Of a stretch of 64,000 nucleotides of DNA, positions 16,575 to 61,854 are shown piece by piece. The notes below the pieces were generated by a model, which saw nothing but the letters and a program-made list of their open reading frames with translations, did not search any database and was not told the origin of the DNA. The DNA is from an uncultured Gammaproteobacteria bacterium (GTDB taxonomy: Bacteria; Patescibacteriota; Patescibacteriia; Magasanikbacterales; UBA922): assembly GCA_964435035.1 (NCBI GenBank), contig CAYSXR010000001.1:144192-208191 (forward strand), in the 5' to 3' direction. Positions within the stretch are counted from its first letter, which is position 1, and every line of letters begins with the position of its first letter. Made by a program: the position numbers and the translations under genes.

Positions 16575-16647
16575 TGACCCCGGTGGGGATCGAACCCACG
16601 ACCATTGGCTTAAAAGGCCACTGCTCTACCAGCTGAGCTACAGGGTC
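16575..16647 (-). tRNA. tRNA-Lys (anticodon UUU)
   Basis: The reverse complement folds as a cloverleaf: GACCCUG acceptor, GCUCAGCUGGUAGAGC D-arm, anticodon loop CUUUUAA, GGUUCGAUCC T-arm. CCA is not encoded. Confidence 0.9.
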
Positions 16648-36492: not shown

Positions 36493-36566
36493 CGGGCTGG
36501 ACGGGACTCGAACCCGCAACTTCTGCCGTGACAGGGCAGTGCTCTAACCAGTTGAACTACCAGCCC
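36493..36566 (-). tRNA. tRNA-Asp (anticodon GUC)
   Basis: The reverse complement is GGGCUGGUAGUUCAACUGGUUAGAGCACUGCCCUGUCACGGCAGAAGUUGCGGGUUCGAGUCCCGUCCAGCCCG. Loop is CUGUCAC, discriminator is G, and CCA is not encoded. Confidence 0.9.
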
Positions 36567-38747: not shown

Positions 38748-38774
38748 AAAGGCGCTCTGAGAATCGCGCCTTTT
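38748..38774. terminator. Bidirectional hairpin terminator 3' of tmRNA
   Basis: aaaggcgc-tctgagaatc-gcgcctttt. Confidence 0.65.
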
Positions 38775-38776
38775 CG

Positions 38777-39173
38777 TGGAGATGCCGGGAGTCGAACCCG
38801 GGTCTAGACGGGTTACCCCGATACTCTACATGTGTATCGATGTTTGGTGTTTCGCATACGAATATGAAACATCGAAAAATATCGCATGCTATCGCATGAA
38901 TGGTTTCAACTAACTTCCATACGAACAAAGTTAGTCTACGCTCGAACTAGGGTTGGCACCGTGGATCCACCATCGAGTATCGTGGGTACGATGGTCGTAG
39001 TGATTTAGGCTACAACAGAAGCAAAGCTAGGCATACTGAAAGCTTTCGCTACAGTGTTTTTAGCTCGCTCGAACAAGTTTGCACTTGTGGAATTGCCTAT
39101 TTGTTACAGAGACAGGCACTCTGACATGCATATACAAGATAACAGAATCCATCTATCGAAGCCTGTCATCCCC
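38777..39173 (-). ncRNA. ssrA: tmRNA (SsrA)
   Basis: 5' GGGGAUGACAGGCUUCGAUAG pairs with 3' ..GGGUUCGACUCCCGGCAUCUCCA, giving an acceptor stem with a G3:U pair and a T-arm. An internal tag frame ends ..PSFASVVA-UAA (stop at 39005-39007). It is adjacent to smpB. Confidence 0.9.
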
Positions 39174-43399: not shown

Positions 43400-46240
43400 A
43401 TGGTAGCGATATCCCCCGAACAATCAGTACCGCAAGAATCACGAAAGAAAAAAACACCTGATACGGTAAAAATAGAGAAATATAGTGAGGTGTGGGAGCA
43501 TGCAAAAAATCTGGAGGGTAAAATAAAAAAACTCAAAGAACATGCAATCGATGCGGATGAAATCGGAGAAATAGAAGGTATTCTCAAAGATGCAAAAGGA
43601 TATTTTTCTAGATTTGGAGAGAAAAAAGATAAAGGCAGAAGTGTTGCTCAGCTTGAAGAGAGGCGTAAGGCTGCAGTAGAAAAACTTACTGACCTTAATC
43701 GGCGCATGGTGTCGATGCTTGAAAAATTAGGACAACCAATTCCTAATACTCTTTTGTCGTACAAAGACAGTGGATTTGTTGATATTGTAAAAGAATCTAA
43801 TAAAGAAGGGTTGTCTGAAGAAAAAAAAGAAGAAGTGTCTGAAGTTGTGGGTGCTCATATAATTCAGCCCCCTGAAAATTATTCTAAAGAGTCATTGGGT
43901 GATTCAGAAATTGGTGGTGTGAATAGTATCGAGGCGCCAGAGAAGAAGGAAGAAGTGTTGGTTTCTGCCGAAGAGTCGCCTGTAAATGTACGAGAGGAAT
44001 CATCCTCACCTGAAACACCAATAGAAGATGTTATCAAGATTTCTTCAGGAGGAAAAACATATGAATTCGGCTGGCACGAACAGGTGGTTTACACTACTGC
44101 AAAGGGTAAGCAGCTTGAGTGTATTGTGCTTGGAAAATCAAATGATGAGAATAAGCCGGGGCTTATTTTGAAAGATCTTGAAAAAGGAAAAGTATTTGCT
44201 CTTGGTGCAGATGCGGTTGCAAAACGGGTACATGTTTCTGATGGTGAAATAGTTTCTCCACGTGTAGAAAATAATAAGGCCGATTCTGGTCAATCTGCTG
44301 AAGGTGAAGATATTGATAGAGAAGAAAAAGCTGCTCTTGAAAAAATGAAAAAAGACCAGAGGGAAGTAGAAGAGAAAAAAGCTCAAGAATTAAGTGAATT
44401 ATTAGCACAAGCTGGAAAGTCTGCCGAAGATGACACTTCATTTGTACACACAAGCACAGATGAGAGGGGAAGTTTCGATCAGAAGATGGTTGATAAACTT
44501 GTAGCTGATGGATCGATTGAAAAAATTAACACGTTATTGAAAAATAAATCCGAGGTGTGGGTACAGGAAGATGGTAAATGGTATCAGGGTGTAGTGCAAG
44601 ATATTACCGGAGCACAGGTGGGTGTTACTGTAGGAGAGGAGGGTCGAGAGAAAAAATATTTCTATGTGGATGCTGAAGAATTTTTGGGCATGCAGGATCG
44701 AGCGAAAAAATTGTTGAAATACAAAAAAGAATTAGAGCTTCCCTCGGTGGTGGTGGACACCGAATTCCTCGCTCGTCCAGATACGATCACCAAAGGTGAA
44801 ATTTTTACTCCTCCGACCGAGAGAAAGACCGTACCTGACGTGCCTCTAGTGAGTATTGATACTCCATTGCCGGTACGAGAACGAAAAACCTACCCAGAAG
44901 TTTCAGAAAAAAAAGCAATACAGATGATTCAATCAGTCGCTGAAGAATTTGAAAAAACATGGAAAGGAATGCGCATGATGACGACAGAAAAACAAAAGAC
45001 CGGATGGCTCCAGAGTAAGGAAGTTGAACGAGAGATGACGGTGACAGAAAAAAAGGAGCAATTAGAAGCGTGGCTTGATATGGTGGAGCAGGCATTTGAT
45101 TCACTCGACAAGCAAAAAGATGGGACACACATGGAAAAACCAGTACTCATGTGGCATCAGGCACAGGCATTAATTCGCGCATTAGAAAATGAACTTCGGT
45201 ATACAGAAGAAACGAATAAAAGTGAAGAGTGGGATCACGCACTTGAGGCTTTTAGTAGTATAATTAATGAAAGAAGCACACGTCTCAAGGAAAAAAAGAA
45301 AGGGTCATTGATTGCACCGTGGGCCATGAAAACGACACTTGCTGCCTTGGGTGCTTTTGCAATCGGAAATGCAACAAACAATCGAATAGAAGATGTGGCT
45401 GCAGTGAGTGAACGATATATGGAAGCAGGTGAAAAAAAATATGAATTACCCAGAGAAGAACATACGGGTGATGCACAGAGAAATATGCTAGATTTTGTAA
45501 TTAATATGAATCGGATGATAAACGAGCCCACACTTTCGATAACACCCGTTGCAATTGATGCTCGACTTACTCCACAGATCAAGGATAAAATATCAGGGAA
45601 AGTTCCGGGTTTGGCTGGTGCAGAAATAGCATCTGATGGAAAATCAGTTACATTGACTTTTGATAATAACCAAACAGTTGAAAGTCGTCCTGAAAAAATA
45701 CAAAAGTCGGGTCGCGATAGTTGGAAACTGAAGACAGCTGAGAAAAAGGGTCCGGAGTATGGCGAACAAATGTTGAGAGAATTAAGGAAAGTATTGGGTG
45801 AAGTAAAGCAAGAGTTTCCTGATATGTTTCGTGGACCAGAATCATCTTCCAAGCAAAAGAGAGTAGTAAGAACAGTAGTACAGGCCGAAAAGAAATTACG
45901 AGAAGCAGAGGTAGTAATACCGAGAAGTGGTGAGGCGAGAAGACAGTTGGAACAAGTAAAACAGGTGTTGGAACAAGTAAAACCAGGACTCGAATCTATT
46001 TCAAAAGAGATTGTAGATGAGATTAAGGCAGAGGATCTCGAATTGCCACAGGATGTATTTGTGCGTTTTAGTCGAGAGGTTACGTTTGATCCAAAGGCAG
46101 ATGCTCTATTTGAGGAATGGGGAAATGCACGAAATTCTCTCAAAGCAGCACAGGAAGCAGGAGATCAAGAGGGGGTAAAGAAAAGTAACGAGGAGTTGCG
46201 TAAGGTTATTGAAAAAATAACGAAAGAGTATAGTAAATAA
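43400..46240 (+). CDS. Large charged hypothetical protein with two SH3/Tudor-like beta segments
   Basis: About 946 aa, rich in Lys/Glu coiled-coil-like stretches, with one central hydrophobic segment (TTLAALGAFAIGNA). ATG 43400 preferred over GTG 43394. Confidence 0.6.
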   Translation: MVAISPEQSVPQESRKKKTPDTVKIEKYSEVWEHAKNLEGKIKKLKEHAIDADEIGEIEGILKDAKGYFSRFGEKKDKGRSVAQLEERRKAAVEKLTDLNRRMVSMLEKLGQPIPNTLLSYKDSGFVDIVKESNKEGLSEEKKEEVSEVVGAHIIQPPENYSKESLGDSEIGGVNSIEAPEKKEEVLVSAEESPVNVREESSSPETPIEDVIKISSGGKTYEFGWHEQVVYTTAKGKQLECIVLGKSNDENKPGLILKDLEKGKVFALGADAVAKRVHVSDGEIVSPRVENNKADSGQSAEGEDIDREEKAALEKMKKDQREVEEKKAQELSELLAQAGKSAEDDTSFVHTSTDERGSFDQKMVDKLVADGSIEKINTLLKNKSEVWVQEDGKWYQGVVQDITGAQVGVTVGEEGREKKYFYVDAEEFLGMQDRAKKLLKYKKELELPSVVVDTEFLARPDTITKGEIFTPPTERKTVPDVPLVSIDTPLPVRERKTYPEVSEKKAIQMIQSVAEEFEKTWKGMRMMTTEKQKTGWLQSKEVEREMTVTEKKEQLEAWLDMVEQAFDSLDKQKDGTHMEKPVLMWHQAQALIRALENELRYTEETNKSEEWDHALEAFSSIINERSTRLKEKKKGSLIAPWAMKTTLAALGAFAIGNATNNRIEDVAAVSERYMEAGEKKYELPREEHTGDAQRNMLDFVINMNRMINEPTLSITPVAIDARLTPQIKDKISGKVPGLAGAEIASDGKSVTLTFDNNQTVESRPEKIQKSGRDSWKLKTAEKKGPEYGEQMLRELRKVLGEVKQEFPDMFRGPESSSKQKRVVRTVVQAEKKLREAEVVIPRSGEARRQLEQVKQVLEQVKPGLESISKEIVDEIKAEDLELPQDVFVRFSREVTFDPKADALFEEWGNARNSLKAAQEAGDQEGVKKSNEELRKVIEKITKEYSK

Positions 46241-46261
46241 CATTTTGATATAGAGAAGAAA

Positions 46262-46297
46262 AATCACTGATAGCAGTCGGTGATTTTTTGTTTTTTT
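46262..46297 (+). terminator. Rho-independent terminator
   Basis: aatcactga-tagcag-tcggtgatt hairpin, then ttttttgttttttt. Confidence 0.75.
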
Positions 46298-46416
46298 AAG
46301 GTGTTTGGGCTAGAAATGTGCTAAAAAGTATGAGAGTAGTCAAAAGGGGCTACACCCTTTACTTTTTGTCAAAATTTGCATAAAGTACGTTAATGCTTAT
46401 TGTGGCAGGGGTATAC

Positions 46417-46445
46417 TTGACAAAAAGGTATAAATATGCTATAGT
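46417..46445 (+). promoter_or_regulatory. Consensus sigma70-type promoter (TTGACA-17-TATAGT) driving the GC-rich island
   Basis: acTTGACAaaaaggtataaatatgcTATAGTac is near-identical in layout to the promoter at 63780-63808. Confidence 0.7.
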
Positions 46446-46655
46446 ACTGCGTTATTTCAAAAGCCCTACATAGGTCTTCGAAATAGCAATCCAGGGGCCC
46501 CATCAGAGAGGATATGTGTCCCTTCTGATGGAGTCCCTGGTCTAGGAGCTCCCACTGTGGCCCGTTCGGGCAATAGTGAGAGCCTTAGGCTCATTACAAT
46601 CGAAGAAGCTAGAACACGTGCCCCTATGAAAGGGGTGTAAACGAGGAGATCAGAA
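46446..46655 (+). promoter_or_regulatory. Structured 5' leader of about 200 nt
   Basis: Nested helices ccaggg[ccatcaga...tctgatgg]ccctgg, gcccg-tt-cgggc, gagcc-tta-ggctc, and cccct-atgaa-agggg just before SD gaggag. No known riboswitch recognised. Confidence 0.45.
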
Positions 46656-48104
46656 ATGATTGACCGCAACAAGAAGAGCAACAAGAAGAGCACGCCCGTG
46701 AAGGGCGGCGCTGCGGCGAACCCGCAGGCGATGGCAACCGTGGCGTCTCACAAGGACGACACGGCTCAGATCGATGTGGTGGTCGAGACCAATCCCGAGG
46801 CCGACAAGGTCGAGGGTGAGGTCAAGGCCGATGAAGAGGCGAAGGTCGAAGAGACCGTCGCCACCGCCCCGACCGAGAACGTCGAGAAGAGCGAGGAGCC
46901 GGCCGTTGTGGTCGACCCCGAGCCCGAGCTCGAGCAGAAGCGGAACTTCCGTAAGGAAGACCTCCGCCTCCGGTACAACGACAACCCGCAGGTGCTGCTC
47001 ACCTCCGCGGATCTCAGCGAAGAGGACAAGGTCCTCATCGGCGAGATCGCGAGCGAGCAGAACCAGGTCGTCCGCGACTATGCCGCGCTGGCACAGGAGC
47101 TGACCGACGAGAAGGACCAGCTCGAGCAGAAGCTCGACGCGACCAACTCCAAGCTGGGGAACGTCACCAACCTCATCGCGACCACGGTCAAGGAGACCGT
47201 GGGACAGGTGGACAAGGAGACGTCGGCCTTGATCGAAGGTCTGAAGATCGAGATCGAGGGCGTCATCGGCAAGGGTAACGGCGTGAAGAACGCCGTCACG
47301 AAGATCGGGGACGATGTCAACAAGGACATCGGCTCGCTCAAGGGTCAGGTCAACGCCAACGCCAAGTCGGTCAACGACAAGGTCGATGGGATGGCCGCGA
47401 TGCTCGGGAAGATCGACGAGAAGATCTCCGAGATCAAGTCCCCGCCGCCCCCGCAGCAGCCGCCGGCTCAGTCCAGCACCACCCCGTCCTCCGGATCCTC
47501 CGGGTGGCCGTGGGTCGTGGCCGTGGGCATCTTGCTCGCGGCCGTGATCGCGGTCTTCCTCCTGAACAAGGATGTGAAGATCGAGGTCCAGGTGCAGCAG
47601 CCGGCGGTGAACACCGTGAAGGGTGTGGTGCCGCCGGTGGTGGACAACGCTCTCGGGGTGACCTCGCAGCAGGTGACCCCGGGTGGACCGGGGAATCCGA
47701 TCGTGCCCACGGTGGTCGGTGCCACGTCCGAGGATCCCTGCAAGGGGAAGGTCGGTGGGGAGCTCGGGTCGTGTGTCCTTCAGCTGGAGAAGTTCCGGCC
47801 GAAGGGGTTCACTGATGCGCACTGGAACACGGTCGTCGAGACCTTCCAGAACGTCATCATGGTCCCCTTGAGCGTTCCGTTCAAGGACATCAAGCACCAC
47901 GACAAGGCCATCGAGCACAACATGAGGAAAGACGCGGCACTGCAGGCGTGCGTCGACGCATACGTCTTGAAGACGGATGATGTCGAGTCGAACGTCCGGT
48001 GTCAGCGGGCGGTCGATTGTCTGTTCACTTCGGTGGACGAGGCAGCACAGTGCTACATGACGCATACGCGCTCGATCACGGGCGTTTTGGTCACTGTCAA
48101 CTGA
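46656..48104 (+). CDS. Bitopic membrane protein: acidic coiled-coil N-domain, Pro-rich linker, TM, Cys-containing C-domain (island gene a)
   Basis: 482 aa with an SD upstream. TM helix WPWVVAVGILLAAVIAVFLL. Seven Cys residues, all C-terminal to the TM. Extreme GC3 codon usage (AAG/GAG/GAC/AAC/ATC). Confidence 0.75.
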   Translation: MIDRNKKSNKKSTPVKGGAAANPQAMATVASHKDDTAQIDVVVETNPEADKVEGEVKADEEAKVEETVATAPTENVEKSEEPAVVVDPEPELEQKRNFRKEDLRLRYNDNPQVLLTSADLSEEDKVLIGEIASEQNQVVRDYAALAQELTDEKDQLEQKLDATNSKLGNVTNLIATTVKETVGQVDKETSALIEGLKIEIEGVIGKGNGVKNAVTKIGDDVNKDIGSLKGQVNANAKSVNDKVDGMAAMLGKIDEKISEIKSPPPPQQPPAQSSTTPSSGSSGWPWVVAVGILLAAVIAVFLLNKDVKIEVQVQQPAVNTVKGVVPPVVDNALGVTSQQVTPGGPGNPIVPTVVGATSEDPCKGKVGGELGSCVLQLEKFRPKGFTDAHWNTVVETFQNVIMVPLSVPFKDIKHHDKAIEHNMRKDAALQACVDAYVLKTDDVESNVRCQRAVDCLFTSVDEAAQCYMTHTRSITGVLVTVN

Positions 48105-48119
48105 ACCTCAACCCAACTA

Positions 48120-48145
48120 GTCCGACCTCCCTCGGGAGGTCGGAC
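48120..48145 (+). other. Intercistronic GC hairpin
   Basis: gtccgacctcc-ctcg-ggaggtcggac forms a perfect 11-bp stem between island genes a and b. No T-run, so probably not a full terminator. Confidence 0.5.
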
Positions 48146-48159
48146 ACAGGAGAACAGAC

Positions 48160-49095
48160 ATGAAGCAGCTCGTCGCGAAGATCGTGGTTTATTACATCGT
48201 ACTTCTCTCGGCGTCGGCCTTCGGCTCGACGCCGAACCCCGGTGACCAGTTCGACCTGATCCAGGGAGGGATCCCGGCGAAGGTCGAGGTCACGCAGCAG
48301 GAGATCAAGGCGATGGACACGTCCATCGACCAGCTCCTGAAGCGCACCGGCGGTCTCCTCAAGAAGGACGCCGAGCTCAAGAAGGAGCTCGAGGACCTCA
48401 AGAAGGAGCTCGAGGACCTCAAGAGCAAGCTCGACAAGGTGGTGAAGCCGGGTGATCTCACGGTCATCCGAGTGGATCTGGGAAGGTTGTGGACGCAAGT
48501 CAACAACCATGGACAGCGCCTCACCGAGCTCGAGCAGGACGTCGAAGATCTGAAGAGGAGCGACAAGGCTCAGGACGATCGACTCGGTGATCACGACCAG
48601 AAAATCGAGGACATCAACAAGCGCCTCGATCGAGGTCTCGGAGTGAAGTTCGGCATCGGAGCCTATGGCGTCTACGGGACGCAAGGCTCGATCAACGGTG
48701 GAGCTTCGGCTCGGCTGAGGATCCCGCTGTCCGGTGGATGGCAAGCGATCGTCAATGGCGGAGTCGGCGGCAACCATCAGGGAGCTTCAGGATTCGCCGA
48801 TCTGTCGGTCGGCTACCAGTTCGCGAGCGGCATCTACCTGGGGGCAACCCTCGGTATCGACGCCAACTGCGACGGTATGTGCACCAGGCTCCTCACGGAG
48901 ATCTGGGGCGCAGGTCCCGACATCGGCTACCTGTCCGACGATGGACTCTTCATCCGGGCTCGTGTGCTCTTCGGGAGCGAGTGGATCAAGGGTCCGACGA
49001 TGCAGATCGAGTACCCGGATCGTACGGTCTTCAAGACCGACGAGTCCCGGGAGTTCGGCATCTCGGCTTTGATCCAGCTCGGTCACGAGTTCTAG
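48160..49095 (+). CDS. Signal-peptide protein with coiled coil and C-terminal OMP-like beta-barrel ending in Phe (island gene b)
   Basis: 311 aa with signal peptide ..LLSASAFG and heptads ELKKELEDLKKELEDLKSKLD. The last 150 aa or so have alternating Gly/aromatic beta-strand patterns and end ..ALIQLGHEF. Confidence 0.7.
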   Translation: MKQLVAKIVVYYIVLLSASAFGSTPNPGDQFDLIQGGIPAKVEVTQQEIKAMDTSIDQLLKRTGGLLKKDAELKKELEDLKKELEDLKSKLDKVVKPGDLTVIRVDLGRLWTQVNNHGQRLTELEQDVEDLKRSDKAQDDRLGDHDQKIEDINKRLDRGLGVKFGIGAYGVYGTQGSINGGASARLRIPLSGGWQAIVNGGVGGNHQGASGFADLSVGYQFASGIYLGATLGIDANCDGMCTRLLTEIWGAGPDIGYLSDDGLFIRARVLFGSEWIKGPTMQIEYPDRTVFKTDESREFGISALIQLGHEF

Positions 49096-49346
49096 ACTTC
49101 AAGATTCGGGGAGTGTCTCTACTCCCCGGACCCCTCACCTCGCCGACTTCAAGGCAGAAGGGATAAGACAATGAGACAAACACTCGAGTAAACGGCGTGG
49201 TCGCACAACGCGGCCCCCAATACTGGAGCATGGGCGATATTTCGAAAGAAATGTCGCCCCTCGCACAGCGTATATCAGTCTCTGGTATGCGATGACGAGA
49301 AAAGCATCTCACGTAAATCCCGACTAAATCGGGACACGTGACAAGC

Positions 49347-49375
49347 TTGACAAACGAGAGTATTTATGCTATACT
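49347..49375 (+). promoter_or_regulatory. Consensus sigma70-type promoter (TTGACA-17-TATACT)
   Basis: gcTTGACAaacgagagtatttatgcTATACTaag, located inside an AT-rich spacer of the GC-rich island. Confidence 0.7.
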
Positions 49376-49498
49376 AAGCTGTTACAAAATAAAGAAGTGC
49401 CATGGGAAATCTCGATGTAGTCGGGGTATCTATGGTAGATCGTCATGCACTGCATGGTGGTCCATTGAACCTTACAATATATGCGAAATGTATAAAAA

Positions 49499-49543
49499 GC
49501 TTGAAAGGCTAGAAAGGCCGGAAAGGCTTGAAATGCTAGAGAA
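49499..49543 (+). repeat. Five tandem 9-nt repeats (GCYNGAAAG) in a 5' leader
   Basis: gcttgaaag gctagaaag gccggaaag gcttgaaat gctagagaa. Confidence 0.75.
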
Positions 49544-49551
49544 CGTATCTT

Positions 49552-49677
49552 GTGACGTGAAGAAAGAAATTTTCAATAAGAATTTTTTCTTAGCGTCACG
49601 AGGAGTTCTCAGGCGTGAAAACTTCTCGTGTGGTACACGAGGAAGCAACAACAAAACCCCGATTGAATCGGGGAGGA
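49552..49677 (+). promoter_or_regulatory. Leader with mutually exclusive hairpins and a hairpin abutting the SD
   Basis: gtgacg...cgtcac hairpin. cttctcgtg (49622-30) can pair with cacgaggag (49597-605) or with cacgaggaag (49636-45). ccccga-ttgaa-tcgggg overlaps the 5' edge of SD ggaggag. Confidence 0.45.
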
Positions 49678-49685
49678 GAAGAGTC

Positions 49686-51452
49686 ATGAAGAAGTTCAAC
49701 AAGTTCCTGTTCGTCGTCATGTTCATCTCGTTCGTCGCGGCCATCACGGGCTGCGCCGATCACGGTGGCGAGACGGTCGTCGTCAAGGGTGACGATGGGG
49801 AGAGCGTCAAGCTCTGCCCCGAGGAGCATCAGTGCTCCTCGGCCGAGTTCTGCAACTCGCAGGGTCTCTGCGTCATCCCCGGTGCCAACGGCACCAACGG
49901 CGAGGACTTCGAGCGATGCTCGAATAGTCGTGGTGACTGTGTCGGTAACGAGCTCTGCAACTCGCAGGGCGTGTGTGTGCTCGAAGGTCCGCAAGGGCCG
50001 GCGGGGGAGTCCTGTACCGTGTCGACGAAGGTCGACGGGTGCTTCTTCCTCTACTGTGGCGCAAGCGTCACGGAGATCTGCGACGGCGAGGACGGTGTGT
50101 CCTGCACGGTCGCAGGGCAGCCGGACGGCAGCGCTCAGGTCGAGTGCTCGGACGGTTCGTTCGCGACCATCCTCCCCGGACAAGACGGCGAGGACGGTCT
50201 CAACGGCACGAGCTGCACGGCCTCGACGGTCAAAGGTTGCCTCGTGGTGACCTGCGGAACGCAGTCGACGGAGATCTGCCCGGAGGATCTTCCGGATCCC
50301 GAGCCGGTCGACGGCTGCCAGAAGGACTCGGACTGCACGGACGGCAGCGAGTGCACCAACGACATCTGCGATCTCAACACCGGCACCTGCCGGTACGTGT
50401 CGCAGGTGTGTGATGACGGCGTCGCCTGCACCAACGACTGGTGTGACACGAACGGCTACTGCCGTTCGACCGCGGACAATGATCAGTGCAGCGGCGGCGA
50501 CTTCTGCTTGCCGACCGGTTACTGGTTTTGGTCCTCGGCGGTGGGTTCTGAGGAACTCGCTGACGGAGGCTGTTACGAGTGCCGCTGGGACTCTGATTGT
50601 GCCGACGGCGACGCGTGTACGGTCGACACCTGCGACGCGGGTGTTTGCAAGAAGGAAACGCGCGAGTGCCCCACGGGTGCGACGTGCGTCGAGTACTCGA
50701 GCAACTACTACGACGACTCGGAGTGGAACTACGTGTGCCAGGACAATCCGTCGTGCAGCAACAACAGCCAGTGCGACGACGGCAAGTACTGGACGACGGA
50801 TGCGTGCGTGGCCGGGGAGTGTGTCTACACCCAGGTGTCGTGCAACGACAACAACGCATGCACCGTGGACACGGTGAACTCGAGTGGGCAGTGCACCTAC
50901 GCCCAGATCTCGTGCGACGATGGCAAATCCGCCACGGTCGACACGTGCTCTGCGAATACGGGGTGCGTACACACGCCGGTGAACACCGGCTGCGAGCACG
51001 ATCTCGATTGCGATGACGTCGACGGTACGACCACGGACCTGTGCGAGGACAACGGGAGCTGTACACATACTCCCAATGCCCAGTGCAAGTCCCTGACGGT
51101 CAAGGTCGGCTGGGCCATCCTGTGGTCGCGCGGTCCCGAGATCGGAACCACCAATGTCCCGATGGGCAACTGGCGTAGCTGCGAGGAAGACGAGGCGGAG
51201 AACTGCCGTACCATGTCGTGGTGCGGTGACGACATCGTGGAGTTCAATGTTCAGCAGATGCCGAACGTGGCAGGTGCCGACTGGCTCGTGAAGAACGAGA
51301 AAGGCGACAGCCCTTGCACGTCGAACGCAGATGCGACCTTGAACTACACGCCCGCTGATCTCTTCGTCGGGGCGACGCCGGTGCAGAAGGGCTGTTCGCT
51401 CTTCTGCGACCCGAACGGGTACACCAACTACACCTGCGATTCCGCGGAGTAG
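49686..51452 (+). CDS. Cys-rich repeat lipoprotein (island gene c)
   Basis: Start MKKFNKFLFVVMFISFVAAITGC (lipobox) follows SD ggggaggag. Repeats of the form C.(D/N)D.C....G.C, resembling Dictyostelium-CTDC-type units. The ORF-track start at 49338 was rejected. Confidence 0.75.
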   Translation: MKKFNKFLFVVMFISFVAAITGCADHGGETVVVKGDDGESVKLCPEEHQCSSAEFCNSQGLCVIPGANGTNGEDFERCSNSRGDCVGNELCNSQGVCVLEGPQGPAGESCTVSTKVDGCFFLYCGASVTEICDGEDGVSCTVAGQPDGSAQVECSDGSFATILPGQDGEDGLNGTSCTASTVKGCLVVTCGTQSTEICPEDLPDPEPVDGCQKDSDCTDGSECTNDICDLNTGTCRYVSQVCDDGVACTNDWCDTNGYCRSTADNDQCSGGDFCLPTGYWFWSSAVGSEELADGGCYECRWDSDCADGDACTVDTCDAGVCKKETRECPTGATCVEYSSNYYDDSEWNYVCQDNPSCSNNSQCDDGKYWTTDACVAGECVYTQVSCNDNNACTVDTVNSSGQCTYAQISCDDGKSATVDTCSANTGCVHTPVNTGCEHDLDCDDVDGTTTDLCEDNGSCTHTPNAQCKSLTVKVGWAILWSRGPEIGTTNVPMGNWRSCEEDEAENCRTMSWCGDDIVEFNVQQMPNVAGADWLVKNEKGDSPCTSNADATLNYTPADLFVGATPVQKGCSLFCDPNGYTNYTCDSAE

Positions 51453-51669
51453 TCGTACCCACAAACATTTCGTGTAAAAGCTTTGAGTAGCCTAGCTACC
51501 AGACTCAAAGTTCAATCAACGTAGCGGGAGGGGGCACAAGCGTTCATCTGAATTGCGCAAGCGATTCAGTGACGAGTGCCTCCCTCCCATTCCAACATAT
51601 CTTTATCAAAATTCAGAACTCAGATTACAGTGAGAGACTAGTGAGTATTGGTAGAGAGATGTGGGGATG

Positions 51670-51727
51670 GAAAATTCAAAACTTAAAACTTAAAACTCAA
51701 AATTTAGATTTAAGTTGTGAGTTATTA
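51670..51727. repeat. A/T-word intergenic repeat (family C, copy 2) inside the GC-rich island
   Basis: gaaaattcaaaacttaaaacttaaaactcaaaatttagatttaagttgtgag. Confidence 0.55.
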
Positions 51728-51795
51728 CAAACCCTTTCCATCATTATGATGGTTTCAATTCCCCTCAACCGCGACGACAGAAATGTCACGCGCGG

Positions 51796-51821
51796 AAAAA
51801 ACCCGCGCATGCGGGTTTTTT
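51796..51821. terminator. Strong bidirectional terminator
   Basis: aaaaaacccgc-gcat-gcgggtttttt. Confidence 0.85.
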
Positions 51822-51913
51822 AAATTCCATTACCTCGGGTATATCGTATAATGATGGTATATCTATGGTAGAGGAATTCTACACGCCAGTTCACAAAAAC
51901 CAGGAGGGGACAC

Positions 51914-52651
51914 ATGTTGGGTATGACGTTTCGTTTGTTTGTTTTCTGTCTCACCGTGTTCACCGCCGCATGCATCGAGGATATGCGGCGGGAGGAAGCG
52001 TCCATGGTCCAGGTCGATACGTCGACTGGCATCATGGATATGGTGGAGGAAGTCAAAGACGTACCAGATTCACGGGTCCGTGATCGGTATGATATCGAAT
52101 TTCCTCCTACAGCCGACGAGTGTGTCGTCGATGAATTCATCGCAGAGGGAAGCCCTTGCGATGATGGCGATGCATGCACGATCGATGTCTGTATCCAGGG
52201 CATGTGTCGTAATCGAGCTATCGACTGCGACGACGGAAATCCCTGGACGGATGACGAGTGCATCGTCGACACTGGGGCGTGCTCCAGTGTACATCGGGTG
52301 ACTCATTTCACCGTTCGCGCGGAGCGTCCGGGAAAGGTGAAGCTTTGGTATGGGAATCACACCGAGCCAGAGACCTATCCCATGAACTCGAGCTTCGAGA
52401 TCCAGAAGATGGATCTCTGCGTCGAGAACCGTGTGCTCACGCTCGCGGTAGAGGACGAAGAGTTCCCGGGAACCTACTGGGGTTGTAACCCTGGCCTTCC
52501 TTCGAAGAGGGAACTCGCAGTCGAGATCGACGGGGTGGACACGCCCGGTTATTTCGCTGCGGATCTCGGATGGGAGGTGCCCAACTCTGCGTGTGGTGGG
52601 AAGGGAGAGGGTGACCTCTACTTCTTGCGGGCGCAACTCGCATGTGACTGA
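51914..52651 (+). CDS. Small Cys-rich lipoprotein sharing the C-terminal domain of gene e (island gene d)
   Basis: SD aggagggg upstream. Signal peptide ..LTVFTAAC. Two Cys-rich units (CDDGDACTIDVC, CDDGNPWTDDEC). The C-domain motif CNPGLPSKRELAVEIDGV matches CNPGFPSKSTLTVMVNGV in gene e. Confidence 0.7.
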   Translation: MLGMTFRLFVFCLTVFTAACIEDMRREEASMVQVDTSTGIMDMVEEVKDVPDSRVRDRYDIEFPPTADECVVDEFIAEGSPCDDGDACTIDVCIQGMCRNRAIDCDDGNPWTDDECIVDTGACSSVHRVTHFTVRAERPGKVKLWYGNHTEPETYPMNSSFEIQKMDLCVENRVLTLAVEDEEFPGTYWGCNPGLPSKRELAVEIDGVDTPGYFAADLGWEVPNSACGGKGEGDLYFLRAQLACD

Positions 52652-52739
52652 TGACCGGGTGTCTCGCGAAGGATAGGATGGCGTATACGCTATGCTGTCC
52701 ACCTTCGCGAGCACCACTAATTCAACAAATAGAATTATA

Positions 52740-52768
52740 TTGACAAAATACTCTTTTCCTGATATGTT
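52740..52768 (+). promoter_or_regulatory. Putative promoter (TTGACA-17-TATGTT)
   Basis: The -35 is consensus and the -10 is weak. A leader of about 220 nt follows, with the long hairpin ctagagg..ccctctag (52881-52946). Confidence 0.45.
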
Positions 52769-52998
52769 GATACGATTGTATCTACGCATATCGGATATCT
52801 AGAGAGGTATCTGGTATGCGCCACTGGAGAATCATTCTCAAGTGTGTATGTTCATTATAATCACATAAGTTTTTTGTTCAGCTAGAGGATGGGTGCAGAT
52901 AGAGGTATATGTAACATATCTTGTATCGATAGCCACCCTCTAGCTGAGACACAGTGTCACTGCTGGAGTTCAACGGCCTCACAACGGAGGAAGGCCAA

Positions 52999-55041
52999 AT
53001 GCGTCTGAAGAACAACAACAACCGGATGTTCATCATCACGGTTGCCCTCGCCATGGGGTTCATGGCGGCGTGCACGGAACACGGCGGCGACGAGCCGATC
53101 GTGGTCGTGATGAAGGCGGACCTCGACCTCGACGAGGTCCCCAACAACGTCGACAACTGCCCGGGGGACAACAACCCCGATCAGTTGGACACCGACGGCG
53201 ACGGCATGGGCGATGCGTGCGACAACGACGTCGACGGCGACGGGGTCTTGAACCCCGCCGACAACTGCCCCGACAACTTCAACCCCGACCAGGCGAACCT
53301 CGACAAGGTCCTGGCCGACAGCGGCAACGTCACCGTGGTCGCGGATCTCTTCGGAGACGTCTGCGACAACGACGACGACGGCGACGTGGTCTGCGACCCC
53401 TGGCTCGGCGTGGACGGGTGGGAAGAATTCCATCCCGGTCAGGGCGAGACGTGTCAGGGCGAGGACAACTGTCCCGACGTCGCCAACGCCGACCAGGCGA
53501 ACCTCGACAAGGACTTCGAGGGCGACGTCTGCGACAACGACGTCGACGGCGACGGCGACCTCAACGGCGCAGACAACTGCCCGCTCGTGACCAACGCCGA
53601 CCAGGCAAACCTGGATCGGGACGACTGGGGCGACGCCTGCGACACCGACGACGACAACGACAGCTTCTGCGACGAAGCTGCCCCCGTCTCGATGCCGCGA
53701 AATGCGCCCGCGATGCCCCTCTGCGAGGGCGAGGACAACTGCCCCCGCTTCAAGAACGCGGGACAGGAAGACATGGACGAGGACGGCATGGGCGACGTCT
53801 GCGACGACGACTGCGACGGGGACCTCTACCCCGAAGCGTCGCCCTGGGATTTCCCCAACCTGTCGTGCTTCGTGTATTGCAATCCGGAAGGTCCGGGAAC
53901 CGAGTGCGACGACGCGAACACGTGCACCACGGACACCTGCAACGGGCAGGGCGTTTGCGAGTACGTGTTCACGCAGTCCGAGACGTGCGAATGCGTCTTG
54001 GACTCCGACTGCGAGCCGACCGACGCCTGCGTCACCGAGATGGCGTGCGTGGAAAACACGTGCGTCGAGACCGGATGGAAGGTCCTGACCGACGGGGACA
54101 ACTGCACCATCGACACCTGTGATCCCTCGACCGGCGTGGTCACCCACGTCGAGAAGGACTGTGGTGGGGACCTCTGCGGAGGAGGCCTCTCGTGTAACCG
54201 CATGACCGGAGAGTGCAGCACACCCGTGCCGCAAATTCCGATCAACGACAGCAACGCCTGCACCACCGACGCGTGCGATCCCGAGACCGGCGTGGTCACC
54301 CACGTCGCGATCGTCTGCGACGATGGGAACGCATGCAACGGCACCGAGACGTGCAACCCGGCTTCCGGGTGCGTCGCGGGTACGCCGCTCACGTGCGATG
54401 ACGGAAGCGTCTGCACGATCGACAGTTGTTCGGCAAACACCTGCCAACACGTGGCGGTGACGACGAACGACAACAACATGTGCACCACCGACACCTGCGA
54501 TCCCGAGATGGGGGTGCAGCACACGGCGGTGGTGTGCAACGACGTGAACTCCAACACCACCGACACCTGCGATCCGGCGACGGGTTGCGTGCACACGCCG
54601 ACGGGGAACTGCACGGTCAACGCGGATTGCAACGACAGCAATCCCCTGACCTACGACACCTGCGTCGCGCTCGTCTGCCAACATGTGGAAGGTGTCCGCG
54701 TGCAGGTCTCGTCGACCGACACGTCGGAGACCTGGCAGGTCAATTTCTACTACAACGGTACGACGATCTCCGGCAACCTGCCCTTCGACGGGACCTTGCC
54801 GAAGACGCTCGCATGCAGCTGGGGCGCCGACATCGCCGTCAACCGTCCGAGCACGAACTTGTTCTTGGACTGCAACCCGGGGTTCCCCTCGAAGTCCACC
54901 CTGACCGTCATGGTCAATGGTGTCACGAAGGCGAACGACTTCCAGGTTCGTTCGCAGGCATGCGACGGCGCTCCGCCGGGCAACCTGTGGCTCTCCGACG
55001 AGAGCGGTGACAACGACCTGGGATGCCCCGCGGCACCCTAG
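52999..55041 (+). CDS. Lipoprotein with thrombospondin-type-3-like Ca-binding repeats and Cys-rich repeats (island gene e)
   Basis: SD ggaggaagg, then MRLKNNNNRMFIITVALAMGFMAAC. Repeated DNCPxxxNxDQxDxDxDGxGDxCDxDxDGD units, then repeated CxxDxCDPxTGxxH units. The mature N-terminus CTEHGGDE resembles CADHGGE of gene c. Confidence 0.75.
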   Translation: MRLKNNNNRMFIITVALAMGFMAACTEHGGDEPIVVVMKADLDLDEVPNNVDNCPGDNNPDQLDTDGDGMGDACDNDVDGDGVLNPADNCPDNFNPDQANLDKVLADSGNVTVVADLFGDVCDNDDDGDVVCDPWLGVDGWEEFHPGQGETCQGEDNCPDVANADQANLDKDFEGDVCDNDVDGDGDLNGADNCPLVTNADQANLDRDDWGDACDTDDDNDSFCDEAAPVSMPRNAPAMPLCEGEDNCPRFKNAGQEDMDEDGMGDVCDDDCDGDLYPEASPWDFPNLSCFVYCNPEGPGTECDDANTCTTDTCNGQGVCEYVFTQSETCECVLDSDCEPTDACVTEMACVENTCVETGWKVLTDGDNCTIDTCDPSTGVVTHVEKDCGGDLCGGGLSCNRMTGECSTPVPQIPINDSNACTTDACDPETGVVTHVAIVCDDGNACNGTETCNPASGCVAGTPLTCDDGSVCTIDSCSANTCQHVAVTTNDNNMCTTDTCDPEMGVQHTAVVCNDVNSNTTDTCDPATGCVHTPTGNCTVNADCNDSNPLTYDTCVALVCQHVEGVRVQVSSTDTSETWQVNFYYNGTTISGNLPFDGTLPKTLACSWGADIAVNRPSTNLFLDCNPGFPSKSTLTVMVNGVTKANDFQVRSQACDGAPPGNLWLSDESGDNDLGCPAAP

Positions 55042-55226
55042 AACTTCTCCTGCGACGACTGCAGGAGCATCTCGAAGTGAACGTGTGATTCGCTTCTGTA
55101 GGTGAATGTTCGAAGACAATCACACAAACCGGGGGAAGTGCGCTCGCTACTACAGCGACCGCTTCCTCCCCTCTACTCTGAATTCAAGTACGATCTTGAG
55201 AATAGAGTAGAAGGGCACGCTAGAAT

Positions 55227-55248
55227 AACCGCACTATGCGGTTTTTTT
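55227..55248 (+). terminator. Rho-independent terminator at right edge of island
   Basis: aaccgca-cta-tgcggtt followed by ttttt. Confidence 0.8.
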
Positions 55249-55253
55249 GTTAT

Positions 55254-55355
55254 GTCATTCCGAGCGAGTGCACCCGAGCCGAGGAATCTTTCCTGTATAA
55301 GACCATGTAAGAAAGATTCCTCGACTCCCTCGGAGACTCGGTCGCTCGGAATGAC
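55254..55355. repeat. Palindromic MITE-like element (family D, solo copy)
   Basis: Perfect 14-bp termini gtcattccgagcga / tcgctcggaatgac and inner 13-bp inverted repeat cgaggaatctttc / gaaagattcctcg. Its arms match the arms of the copies at 61107 and 61583. Confidence 0.75.
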
Positions 55356-61074: not shown

Positions 61075-61106
61075 AGTAAAAGCTTAAAACGCAAAAGTAT
61101 TAATGT

Positions 61107-61244
61107 GTCATCCCGAGGGAGGAGTGCATCCGACGATTCGAGGGATCTTTCCTGCATAAGGCTGATTAGGAAAAATGTATTTAAAGCTTAGTAAGGACTT
61201 GGTAGGAAAGATTCCTCGACTCGGGTGCACTCGCTCGGAATGAC
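61107..61244. repeat. Palindromic MITE-like element (family D, copy 2)
   Basis: gtcatcccgaggga...tcgctcggaatgac. The right arm matches the reverse complement of the left arm of 55254-55355 with one mismatch. Flanks extend the inverted repeat (taatgt/acatta). Confidence 0.75.
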
Positions 61245-61287
61245 ACATTAAGTAATTGTATTGGGTGGTAAAAAGTAAGGGGGTAGT

Positions 61288-61566
61288 ATGAAAACATACT
61301 ATGTGTATATTATGTCGAGCATTAATCAAACACTCTATGTCGGTATAACCAATAATTTATTCCGTAGAGTTTTTGAACATAGGATGAAACTCAATGAAGG
61401 TTTTACAGAAAAATATCAGATATATAAATTAGTATATGCTGAATACTATACAAATGTGCAGGAGGCAATACGTCGTGAAAAACAAATCAAAAAGTGGCGT
61501 CGAGAGAAGAAAATCAAATTGATTGAAAAAGATAATCCCGATTGGGTGGATCTCGCAAGGAATTAA
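61288..61566 (+). CDS. GIY-YIG nuclease family protein (small, stand-alone)
   Basis: 92 aa: YYVYIMSS..QTLYVGITNNLFRRVFEHRMK...E...REKQIKKW. Confidence 0.8.
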   Translation: MKTYYVYIMSSINQTLYVGITNNLFRRVFEHRMKLNEGFTEKYQIYKLVYAEYYTNVQEAIRREKQIKKWRREKKIKLIEKDNPDWVDLARN

Positions 61567-61582
61567 TGGTGTGATTGGTATT

Positions 61583-61719
61583 GTCATTCCGAGCGACCGA
61601 GTCTTCGAGGGAGTCGAGGAATCTTTCCTGTATAGTATTCTGTAAAAAAATGTAACTATAGTTTGGTAAATACTTTGCAGGAAAGATTTCTCGACTCGGG
61701 TGCACTCACTCGAAATGAC
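61583..61719. repeat. Palindromic MITE-like element (family D, copy 3)
   Basis: gtcattccgagcgaccgagtcttcgagggagtcgaggaatctttcctg ... caggaaagatttctcgactcgggtgcactcactcgaaatgac. It has the same two arm types as the 55254 copy, in inverted order. Confidence 0.75.
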
Positions 61720-61794
61720 AGTGAATAGCTCGGAATCAGGTCACAGAAGTTGCAAATATGCTTGGATCAAGTATCATTACCTTGAAGAATAAGA

Positions 61795-61843
61795 AGTTTT
61801 AAATTTTTAGTTTCAGTTTTGAACTTTGAGTTTTAAGTTTTGA
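61795..61843. repeat. A/T-word intergenic repeat (family C, copy 3)
   Basis: Contains the exact 20-mer gttttgaactttgagtttta (61816-61835) also found at 42151-42170. Confidence 0.55.
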
Positions 61844-61854
61844 GATAGATATCT

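What the first reader, a model, noticed from the sequence alone, without database searches (positions are those of the whole stretch)
61107..61719. GIY-YIG nuclease gene bracketed by two copies of a long palindromic element
Two 137-138 bp elements (61107-61244 and 61583-61719) flank the 92-aa GIY-YIG ORF at distances of 43 and 16 bp. Each element is a long hairpin with gtcat(t/c)ccgag... / ...ctcg(g/a)aatgac termini. Each is built from two arm types, alpha (..gagtgcacccgag.cgaggaatctttc) and beta (..gaccgagtct.cgagggagtcgaggaatctttc), which recur in different orders and orientations among the three copies in the window. This tight association suggests that the small nuclease and the hairpin elements form a selfish or mobile unit, or that the hairpins are the nuclease's substrates. 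This is analogous in logic, though not in sequence, to REP/RAYT or homing-endonuclease systems. I am not aware of a described mechanism for this pairing.
Basis: partly seen in the sequence, partly recalled or inferred. Interest (0 to 1): 0.65.

Follow-up and report, generated by a model that had tools for sequence, protein, structure and literature searches.

The report
Ssn-type ssDNA nuclease with hairpin repeats
A tiny nuclease gene flanked by hairpin repeats in a candidate-phyla-radiation bacterium is a new example of the Ssn nuclease and repeat pairing described in 2025, and comparison with sister genomes shows that both the gene block and a gene-less repeat were inserted here.

Summary
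Three long hairpins (61107-61244, 61583-61719, 55254-55355) exist, and two of them bracket a 92-aa GIY-YIG ORF (61288-61566).

The pairing is not undescribed. The protein is 47% identical to the Neisseria SsnA orthologue and keeps the residues whose mutation inactivates that enzyme. SsnA is the type member of the Ssn family of site-specific single-stranded-DNA nucleases (Chenal et al. 2025, PMC11893778).

Each long hairpin is a convergent pair of 35-41-nt arms. Each arm has the features that SsnA needs in its NTS/SRM repeat: GTC, a short palindrome (ATYYC...GRRAT) and a following C. The Neisseria ssnA locus shows the same paired-arm layout.

In 80 genomes from many phyla, such arms are about 30 times denser within 300 bp of homologues than further away. 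The arm stem covaries: 147 of 156 arms are complementary, against 34 in permutations.

Two points go beyond the paper:
- The arms are a variant with a conserved tandem G·A, and the published SRM search pattern does not match them.
- Three related Magasanikbacteria genomes have empty sites for the gene block, and two of them also lack the gene-less hairpin.

Cleavage by this protein and the means of spread are inferred, not shown. Verdict: a new member of a known kind, of modest interest.

The parts
61288..61566 (+). ssn-like gene: a 92-aa single-domain GIY-YIG nuclease, with a Shine-Dalgarno-like AAGGGGG shortly upstream of the ATG
   Evidence: Pfam PF01541 E = 4e-14. 47% identity and E = 8e-28 to the N. 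gonorrhoeae SsnA orthologue. Y7, Y17 and E64 align with the Y6, Y17 and E64 whose mutation kills Nm SsnA. AlphaFold pLDDT 90.6 with a GIY-YIG fold.
61107..61147 (+). SRM-like arm, left arm of element 1 (alpha variant; stem ATCCCGAG/CGAGGGAT)
   Evidence: Scores 8 of 8 with tandem G·A in my detector. GTC and the C after the stem are invariant in A4.
61210..61244 (-). SRM-like arm, right arm of element 1 (alpha; stem ATTCCGAG/CGAGGAAT)
61107..61244 (.). Composite element 1: a convergent pair of arms with a 62-bp spacer (138 bp). The palindrome extends to 61100-61251.
   Evidence: single-stranded DNA fold -35.2 kcal/mol, z = -8.0.
61583..61623 (+). SRM-like arm, left arm of element 2 (beta, with a nested CCGAG-TCTT-CGAGG mini-hairpin)
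61685..61719 (-). SRM-like arm, right arm of element 2 (alpha; compensated stem ATTTCGAG/CGAGAAAT)
61583..61719 (.). Composite element 2: a convergent pair of arms with a 61-bp spacer (137 bp). Its right half, including part of the spacer, matches element 1 (75 nt at 84%).
   Evidence: repeat D1; z = -5.3.
61728..61744 (.). Short remnant resembling the outer end of a right arm (GCTCGGAAT...GTCAC)
   Evidence: Read directly from the sequence. It lies inside the segment that is absent from the relatives. Not tested further.
61086..61745 (.). Whole inserted block (hairpin, ssn gene, hairpin), absent from the orthologous spacer in three related genomes. The boundaries are good to about 15 nt either way.
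   Evidence: The spacer between the 669-aa and 616-aa genes is 780 bp here, against 19, 7 and 132 bp in L083, L084 and L086. Window 61748-61854 aligns with the L086 spacer.
55254..55288 (+). SRM-like arm, left arm of element 3 (alpha)
55315..55355 (-). SRM-like arm, right arm of element 3 (beta)
55254..55355 (.). Composite element 3: a gene-less convergent pair of arms (102 bp), 5.9 kb from the ssn gene and inserted just after an intrinsic terminator
   Evidence: Single-stranded DNA fold -34.7 kcal/mol, z = -9.1. Exact empty site in L087, and also absent from L088.

Best explanation
This is a member of the Ssn system: a small single-domain GIY-YIG nuclease gene surrounded by its own recognition repeats (SRM, the wider class that includes the Neisseria NTS).

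Each long palindrome is two SRM-like arms facing each other. Every arm reads T-GTC-AT(Y)(Y)C-GA-N...N-GA-G(R)(R)AT-C-T. It can form a short stem of five Watson-Crick pairs, a tandem G·A/A·G pair and one closing pair, around a 19- or 25-nt loop.

By homology with the four Ssn enzymes tested in vitro, the protein should behave as follows (inferred):
- It binds an arm only when the DNA is single-stranded and in the GTCAT orientation.
- It cuts a few nucleotides 5' of the GTC, in a pyrimidine-rich flank.
- It leaves double-stranded DNA and RNA alone.

Because the arms are convergent, each strand of a composite carries one cleavable arm.

Shown here: the anatomy, the homology, the cross-phylum association, the stem covariation, and the absence of both the gene-bearing block and the gene-less composite from the same sites in related genomes.

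The whole therefore behaves as a self-associated, horizontally spreading module. How new copies arise is not known. There is no target-site duplication, and GIY-YIG enzymes are not known to have a strand-transfer activity. The most likely route is host recombination or repair acting on nuclease-cut ssDNA, such as incoming transforming DNA or replication intermediates.
For: Homology:
- tblastn against the single N. gonorrhoeae locus gives E = 4e-18, and BLASTP gives 47% identity over 85 residues. That locus is flanked by canonical NTS repeats.
- The catalytic Tyr, Tyr and Glu are conserved.
- The protein is a single GIY-YIG domain.

Repeat features:
- All six arms keep GTC, the palindrome and the following C. 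In Neisseria these are the positions needed for cutting and binding.
- In Neisseria the NTS repeats also form ~108-bp convergent pairs, three of them upstream of ssnA.

Generality:
- 61 of 80 loci have at least one arm within 300 bp of the gene, and 40 of 80 have arms on both sides. Densities are 3.54, 0.12 and 0.004 per kb for near, far and shuffled sequence.
- The commonest layout is [+]gene[-], at 16 of 80 loci.

Covariation: 147 of 156 arms have complementary YYY/RRR across seven stem variants, against 34 +/- 5 after permutation. With one arm per locus the figures are 54 of 58 against 11.9.

Insertion polymorphism:
- for the gene block and for the gene-less copy.
- No arm and no ssn gene in 49.5 kb of syntenic DNA from three relatives.

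Homologues at 55-63% identity occur in Acidobacteriota, Planctomycetota, Patescibacteria, Chloroflexota, Bacillota, Actinomycetota and Pseudomonadota. That spread points to horizontal transfer.
Against: - No enzymatic test of this protein exists.
- The published degenerate SRM pattern does not match any arm in the window, and matches at only 2 of the 80 loci. It does find the Neisseria NTS repeats as a positive control. These arms therefore lie outside the repeat class for which cleavage was shown.
- Single arms do not fold better than shuffled sequence under nearest-neighbour DNA parameters (z about 0). The long arm-to-arm hairpin is much more stable, so it could hide the arms in single-stranded DNA.
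- No target-site duplication was found, and no step that would join DNA is known. Mobility is therefore inferred from presence and absence only.
- The relatives are 66-85% identical in the neighbouring protein. Deletion from the relatives cannot be formally excluded for the gene block. It is unlikely for element 3, whose empty site is clean.
- CDD cd10448 membership could not be checked.
Confidence: 0.8

Rival explanations
1. A domesticated host function rather than a selfish mobile unit. As proposed for Neisseria, the nuclease and its repeats are kept because cutting repeat-bearing single-stranded DNA modulates natural transformation or recombination around particular genes. Here those genes would be a surface polysaccharide and cell-surface protein cluster. 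On this view the presence and absence between genomes reflects ordinary recombination, not transposition.
For: - In N. meningitidis, SsnA lowers integration of NTS-bearing transforming DNA about 5-fold, and NTS repeats cluster around surface-protein genes.
- All three elements here lie in a cluster of glycosyltransferase, Wzy and surface-repeat protein genes.
- In the Terriglobales loci L002, L008, L016 and L027 the gene sits in the same flanking sequence, which suggests vertical inheritance.
- There is no target-site duplication.
Against: - Only three elements occur in 64 kb, far from the hundreds of copies seen in Neisseria.
- The very wide, patchy distribution at 55-63% identity, the tandem gene copies in L015 and L069, and the clean insertion of a gene-less copy next to a terminator look more like an element that spreads.
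- Competence has not been shown for this organism.
Confidence: 0.3
2. The hairpins are generic intergenic palindromes, such as terminators, mRNA stabilisers or REP-like elements. On this view another enzyme moves or maintains them, and they sit next to the GIY-YIG gene by chance.
For: - All three lie between genes, just downstream of convergently ending or same-strand ORFs.
- Element 3 follows a terminator.
- Long hairpins of this stability could stall transcription.
Against: - A 30-fold enrichment next to homologues in 80 unrelated genomes.
- Strand-specific conserved GTC and C on both arms.
- No run of T after the stems, and only one weak terminator-like match.
- No Rfam family matches.
- Two of the three elements lie within 45 bp of a gene that occupies 0.4% of the window.
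Confidence: 0.03
3. A free-standing GIY-YIG homing endonuclease. It would cut the empty double-stranded site between the two neighbouring genes and be copied in by repair, with the hairpins as passengers.
For: - GIY-YIG enzymes include classic homing endonucleases.
- The block is an insertion relative to the sister genomes.
Against: - The protein is 92 aa with no DNA-binding domain.
- Its tested homologues do not cut dsDNA.
- There is no intron or intein context.
- No PHROGs match.
- The gene-less hairpin inserted on its own at a different, unrelated site.
Confidence: 0.04
4. The arms act as RNA. Transcribed hairpins would regulate or stabilise the ssn mRNA, or encode a small RNA.
For: - The arms lie 43 bp upstream and 16 bp downstream of the ORF, so they are probably co-transcribed.
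- The stem covaries.
Against: - The same arm occurs in both orientations around the gene, so only half of the arms would give the same RNA.
- G·A tandems and GTC/C flanks match the DNA recognition features of Ssn.
- SsnA does not bind RNA.
- No Rfam hit.
Confidence: 0.03

Closest known systems
Ssn family with NTS/SRM repeats (SsnA of Neisseria meningitidis, NMV_0044/NMB0047; Chenal et al., Nat Commun 2025, PMC11893778)
   Same: - A ~92-94-aa single-domain GIY-YIG protein, 47% identical to the N. gonorrhoeae orthologue, with conserved Y/Y/E.
- The gene is flanked on both sides by hairpin repeats that begin (C/T)GTCAT and end GGRATC.
- The repeats also occur as convergent pairs and as gene-less copies elsewhere.
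   Different: - The arm stem is 5 bp plus a tandem G·A and one closing pair, around a 19-25-nt loop. In NTS it is an 8-9-bp perfect stem with a 4-nt loop.
- The published SRM search pattern does not match these arms.
- Only three composites occur in 64 kb, not hundreds per genome.
- The host is a Patescibacteria (CPR) bacterium.
- Cleavage is untested.
REP/BIME elements with RAYT (IS200/IS605-type Y1 transposase)
   Same: The logic is the same. A small nuclease gene is flanked by the short palindromes it recognises as single-stranded hairpins. Extra gene-less copies are dispersed, often in inverted pairs, and there is no target-site duplication.
   Different: - The enzyme is a hydrolytic GIY-YIG nuclease, not an HUH/Y1 transposase that forms a covalent intermediate and rejoins DNA.
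- No transposition chemistry is known for it.
- The sequences are unrelated.
Miniature inverted-repeat transposable elements (MITEs, e.g. Correia elements)
   Same: The gene-less composites are 100-140 bp, have terminal inverted repeats, fold into long hairpins and show insertion polymorphism with a clean empty site.
   Different: - No target-site duplication was found.
- The partner protein is not a DDE transposase.
- The terminal repeats are themselves internally paired recognition hairpins.
UPF0213 / YhbQ-type bacterial GIY-YIG proteins and eukaryotic Slx1
   Same: These are the closest solved folds: BH0048 (1ZG2), Slx1 and EF2693. All have a small URI/GIY-YIG core. Slx1 is structure-selective.
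   Different: - Only about 22-25% identity.
- These families are not reported to be associated with flanking repeats.
- Slx1 needs Slx4 and cuts branched duplex DNA.

Membership tests
Ssn nuclease family (cd10448; PMC11893778) | Single-domain GIY-YIG protein of about 90-100 aa with no extra DNA-binding domain | tested here: met
   92 aa. Pfam GIY-YIG covers residues 4-76. The AlphaFold model is one compact domain with pLDDT 90.6. The nearest folds are GIY-YIG cores.
Ssn nuclease family (cd10448; PMC11893778) | Sequence homology to Neisseria SsnA (the paper's criterion is tblastn E < 1e-10) | tested here: met
   tblastn E = 4e-18 to the only matching place in two N. gonorrhoeae chromosomes. BLASTP gives 47% identity and E = 8e-28. 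That locus is flanked by canonical NTS repeats. The test used the N. gonorrhoeae orthologue, because the N. meningitidis protein itself was not available.
Ssn nuclease family (cd10448; PMC11893778) | Assignment to CDD model cd10448 (GIY-YIG_unchar_3) | not testable with these tools
   CDD is not among the libraries available. NCBIfam has no model that hits the protein.
Ssn nuclease family (cd10448; PMC11893778) | Catalytic residues corresponding to Y6, Y17 and E64 of Nm SsnA | tested here: met
   Y7, Y17 and E64 are invariant in alignment A1 of 34 homologues. They align with the Neisseria residues.
Ssn nuclease family (cd10448; PMC11893778) | Gene flanked by SRM repeats as defined by the published pattern HGTCWYN(0-2)YYVSBRHN(0-5)WNVSBRGN(0-2)RNCYNB | tested here: not met
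   0 matches in the window, and matches at 2 of 80 homologue loci. The same regular expression finds 8 NTS repeats at the Neisseria locus. The failure comes from the tandem G·A and the longer loop.
Ssn nuclease family (cd10448; PMC11893778) | Flanking hairpin repeats with the experimentally important features: GTC 5' of a palindrome, and C immediately 3' of it | tested here: met
   All six arms have these features. The same architecture occurs at 61 of 80 loci. The stem covaries.
Ssn nuclease family (cd10448; PMC11893778) | Site-specific cleavage of ssDNA only, a few nucleotides upstream of the repeat | not testable with these tools
   Needs purified protein and oligonucleotide substrates.
REP/RAYT and IS200/IS605 | HUH/Y1 transposase encoded between or beside the palindromes | tested here: not met
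   The only ORF between the elements is GIY-YIG. The neighbouring genes are syntenic host genes.
Classical MITE | Terminal inverted repeats together with a target-site duplication | tested here: not met
   Terminal inverted repeats are present. No consistent direct repeat is found at the three window elements or at 16 simple gene units (mean 1.38 nt against a null of 0.94).
GIY-YIG homing endonuclease (I-TevI type) | Nuclease domain joined to a DNA-binding domain, usually in an intron or a phage intergenic context | tested here: not met
   92 aa and a single domain. No PHROGs family matches. The context is a chromosomal intergenic spacer.

The most novel reading that the evidence does not exclude
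The arm-ssn-arm unit would be an autonomous mobile element of a new mechanistic kind, moved by a 92-aa hydrolytic ssDNA nuclease acting on hairpin ends. The convergent arm pairs would be its non-autonomous, MITE-like derivatives. The two insertions seen here against empty sites in sister Magasanikbacteria genomes would then be direct footprints of that mobility. The tandem-G·A arm, which the published search pattern does not match, would mark a large unexplored branch of nuclease and repeat specificities.
Probability: 0.35. Interest if true: 0.65.

Novelty: new member of a known kind. Interest (0 to 1): 0.3.

Why it matters
The case itself is ordinary once the 2025 Ssn paper is known. It still adds three useful points.

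- Ssn-type modules occur in candidate-phyla-radiation bacteria (Magasanikbacteria, and other Patescibacteria among the 80 loci).
- The dominant repeat class around this protein clade, across many phyla, has a conserved tandem G·A in the stem and a long loop. The published SRM search pattern does not match it, so surveys based on that pattern undercount repeat and nuclease pairs. These arms would be new specificities for ssDNA tools.
- There are clean filled-versus-empty site comparisons for both a gene-bearing block and a gene-less arm pair. That is the kind of evidence needed to decide whether these modules are mobile elements, a question the original paper left as a hypothesis.

Tried and rejected
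- An Rfam scan at gathering thresholds over the whole window, and at E <= 1 around element 3, gave nothing credible at the elements.
- NCBIfam, PADLOC and PHROGs have no model for the protein.
- A PDB sequence search found only UPF0213 BH0048, and no solved Ssn structure.
- The published SRM pattern gave no match in the window. I therefore wrote a detector for GTC, W, an 8-nt stem allowing tandem G·A, then C. I checked it on shuffles and on the Neisseria locus.
- Folding single arms as DNA showed no stability above shuffles. Support for the within-arm stem therefore rests on covariation, not thermodynamics.
- A search for target-site duplications found nothing significant.
- The supplements of the Ssn paper are not held. 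A 2026 preprint that mentions SsnA could not be opened.
Taxonomy came instead from the named orthologues of the neighbouring gene.
- The exact boundaries of the gene-bearing insertion could not be fixed to better than about 15 nt, because the nearest informative relative is too diverged.

Full report
**Observation**

A 138-bp element lies at 61107-61244 and a 137-bp element at 61583-61719. They lie 43 bp upstream and 16 bp downstream of a 92-codon ORF (61288-61566, + strand). A third, 102-bp copy is at 55254-55355.

- The terminal motif and the inner motif are both over-represented relative to dinucleotide shuffles. The counts are 7 against 1.7, and 6 against 0.54 with no shuffle out of 100 reaching 6.
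- As single-stranded DNA the three elements fold at -35.2, -28.0 and -34.7 kcal/mol, with z-scores of -8.0, -5.3 and -9.1.
- Aligning the six arms (A4) confirms two arm types that differ in their inner part, used in different orders in the three copies.
- The ORF is a GIY-YIG domain (Pfam E = 4e-14). Its AlphaFold model is confident (pLDDT 90.6). The nearest solved folds are the small bacterial UPF0213 proteins, Slx1 and the UvrC N-terminal domain.

**What the arms are**

Every arm reads (T)GTC-AT(Y)(Y)C-GA-G ... C-GA-G(R)(R)AT-C(T). The segment after GTC can pair with the segment before the final C. The pairing is five Watson-Crick pairs, a tandem G·A/A·G, and a closing G-C pair.

Within the window this short stem changes in a compensated way. 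It is ATCCC/GGGAT at 61107, ATTCC/GGAAT in four arms, and ATTTC/GAAAT at 61719. These changes keep the pairing inside an arm, but they create mismatches in the long arm-to-arm hairpin. The conserved unit is therefore the arm, and each long palindrome is a convergent pair of arms.

Under nearest-neighbour DNA parameters single arms are not more stable than shuffles. The case for the within-arm stem therefore rests on covariation, not on energy.

**Related sequences**

The protein has hundreds of homologues at 55-65% identity. A scan of one genome per species returned 80 loci. They come from Acidobacteriota, Planctomycetota, Verrucomicrobiota, Patescibacteria, Chloroflexota, Bacillota, Bifidobacterium and several classes of Pseudomonadota.

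Reading their flanks showed the same kind of arm nearly everywhere. Most often there is one arm upstream in the GTCAT orientation and one downstream in the opposite orientation. I wrote a detector for GTC, A/T, an 8-nt stem allowing a tandem G·A, then C.

- It finds all six window arms at full score.
- In the 80 loci it finds 3.54 arms per kb within 300 bp of the gene, 0.12 per kb further away and 0.004 per kb in shuffled sequence.
- 61 of 80 loci have at least one arm near the gene, and 40 of 80 have arms on both sides.
- 214 of 242 arms carry the tandem G·A.
- The commonest layout is [+]gene[-] (16 of 80 loci), in units of 338-513 bp. Convergent pairs without a gene, like the window's long hairpins, occur 37 times.

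I also ran a test that does not build the pairing into the search. Arms were located with a purine/pyrimidine-only pattern. In that set 147 of 156 arms have fully complementary YYY/RRR triplets across seven stem variants, against 34 +/- 5 when partners are permuted. With one arm per locus the figures are 54 of 58 against 11.9.

**Literature**

A full-text search led to Chenal et al. 2025 (PMC11893778). They describe SsnA of Neisseria meningitidis, a 94-aa single-domain GIY-YIG protein of CDD family cd10448.

- It binds the repeat NTS (CGTCATTCCCGCGMAVGCGGGAATCYRG) only as single-stranded DNA and only in one orientation.
- It cuts a few nucleotides upstream of the repeat.
- The three bases upstream of the palindrome (GTC) matter most for cutting. 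The C just after the palindrome matters most for binding.
- The Y6A, Y17A and E64A mutants are inactive.
- With the authors' degenerate pattern, 71% of homologues have such repeats (SRM) nearby.
- The authors note that the NTS-ssnA-NTS layout resembles an insertion sequence, and they draw the REP/RAYT parallel.

A further search found no other paper on the family.

**Membership**

Two N. gonorrhoeae chromosomes are filed as plasmids in PLSDB. Each has one match to the window protein, at E = 4e-18.

- The translated locus is 47% identical over 85 residues, E = 8e-28.
- Y7, Y17 and E64 of the window protein align with the residues mutated in SsnA, and they are invariant among 34 homologues.
- The Neisseria gene is surrounded by canonical NTS repeats. 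Upstream of it these form three convergent pairs of ~108 bp, which is the same composite architecture as in the window.
- The published SRM pattern matches none of the window arms and hits only 2 of the 80 loci. My implementation of it does find the Neisseria repeats.

By protein the window gene is therefore an Ssn-family member. Its repeats share the experimentally important features, but they belong to a variant class (tandem G·A, 19-25-nt loop) outside the published search pattern. CDD assignment and enzymatic activity could not be tested.

**Mobility**

Named orthologues of the downstream 616-aa gene place the window in Candidatus Magasanikbacteria. Three related genomes, whose orthologues are 85%, 79% and 66% identical, keep the gene order Wzy, glycosyltransferase, 669-aa protein, 616-aa protein, glycosyltransferase. 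In them the two middle genes are 19, 7 and 132 bp apart, against 780 bp in the window.

The 132-bp spacer of the third genome aligns with window 61748-61854. The block from about 61086 to 61745 (hairpin, gene, hairpin) is therefore extra.

The gene-less element 3 has an exact empty site:
- The relative reads GCGGTTTTTTGTTTGTTA|TTTTTTCTTTTTAATTTT.
- The window reads GCGGTTTTTTTGTTAT[102-bp element]TATCGTCACTTTTTCTTTTTTTAATTTC.
- The element is also missing in the second relative.

The 49.5 kb of syntenic DNA from the relatives contains no arm and no ssn gene. No target-site duplication is evident, either here or at 16 simple gene units. The base before GTC is T in 80% of arms, and positions -2 to -10 are pyrimidine-rich and poor in G.

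An independent assembly of the same organism breaks 70 bp upstream of the gene, inside element 1, as repeats often cause.

**Mechanism**

Shown: the anatomy, the homology, the association, the covariation and the insertion polymorphism.

Inferred from the tested homologues: the protein binds an arm in single-stranded DNA and cuts just 5' of it. With convergent arms, either strand offers one cleavable site.

Unknown: how copies spread, whether the long hairpin hides or presents the arms, and what the module does for or to a Magasanikbacteria cell. I consider a selfish, horizontally spreading module the most likely reading. A host function retained as in Neisseria is the main rival.

Chance adjacency, a double-strand homing endonuclease and an RNA role are each contradicted by specific results.

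**Verdict**

The pairing is known, however, so this is a new member of a known kind. It adds a variant repeat class and usable filled-versus-empty sites.

Noticed in passing
window ~46000-55050: A ~9-kb island of 55-58% G+C sits in a ~40% G+C genome. It ends with a 695-aa Cys/Asp-rich protein with thrombospondin-type-3-like repeats (52954-55041). The same high-GC gene end and the same G+C jump are present in two related genomes (L087, L088). It is therefore conserved in the lineage and not an assembly chimera. Element 3 lies 213 bp after the stop of its last ORF.
   Followed up: partly
window 55060-55250; L087 3975-4148; L088 1515-1690: A conserved non-coding stretch of ~170 nt lies downstream of the high-GC ORF. 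It has several predicted hairpins followed by an intrinsic terminator. The consensus fold of three sequences is -59 kcal/mol, with two pairs changed on both sides. L088 has a different terminator sequence at the same place. No credible Rfam match was found. It may be a small structured RNA or a 3'-UTR element.
   Followed up: partly
L081 (NZ_CP119142.1, 1880219-1883473), about 1490-1505: Two 2.17-Mb N. gonorrhoeae chromosomes are filed as plasmids in PLSDB. In this record the ssnA reading frame has no in-frame ATG: the nearby ATG at 1494 is one base out of frame. That suggests either a frameshift or a homopolymer sequencing error.
   Followed up: no
window 61728-61744: A short sequence, GCTCGGAATCAGGTCAC, resembles the outer end of a right arm. 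It lies just beyond element 2 and inside the segment that is absent from the relatives. It may be a remnant of an earlier arm.
   Followed up: no
L015 4001-4261 and 4678-4938; L069 3268-3486, 4001-4270 and 4833-4982: Two loci carry two or three tandem copies of the ssn-like gene a few hundred bp apart. This suggests local amplification of the unit.
   Followed up: no
L002, L006, L008, L016, L027 (Terriglobales loci), upstream of the gene: These loci carry a further arm variant (GTCACCCTGAGCG...GTCGAAGGGCCCCTAC) that my strict detector misses. The upstream flanking sequence is shared among L002, L008, L016 and L027, so the association counts are conservative. In this lineage the gene also appears to be inherited at a fixed site.
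   Followed up: no
window 38774-39173 (-), 16575-16647 (-), 36493-36566 (-): One tmRNA gene and two tRNA genes were found by Rfam. They are unrelated to the finding.
   Followed up: no
L082 (Logan assembly SRR12762285_56997), contig start: An independent short-read assembly of the same organism starts 70 bp upstream of the ssn gene, which is inside element 1. This is consistent with the repeat breaking the assembly.
   Followed up: no
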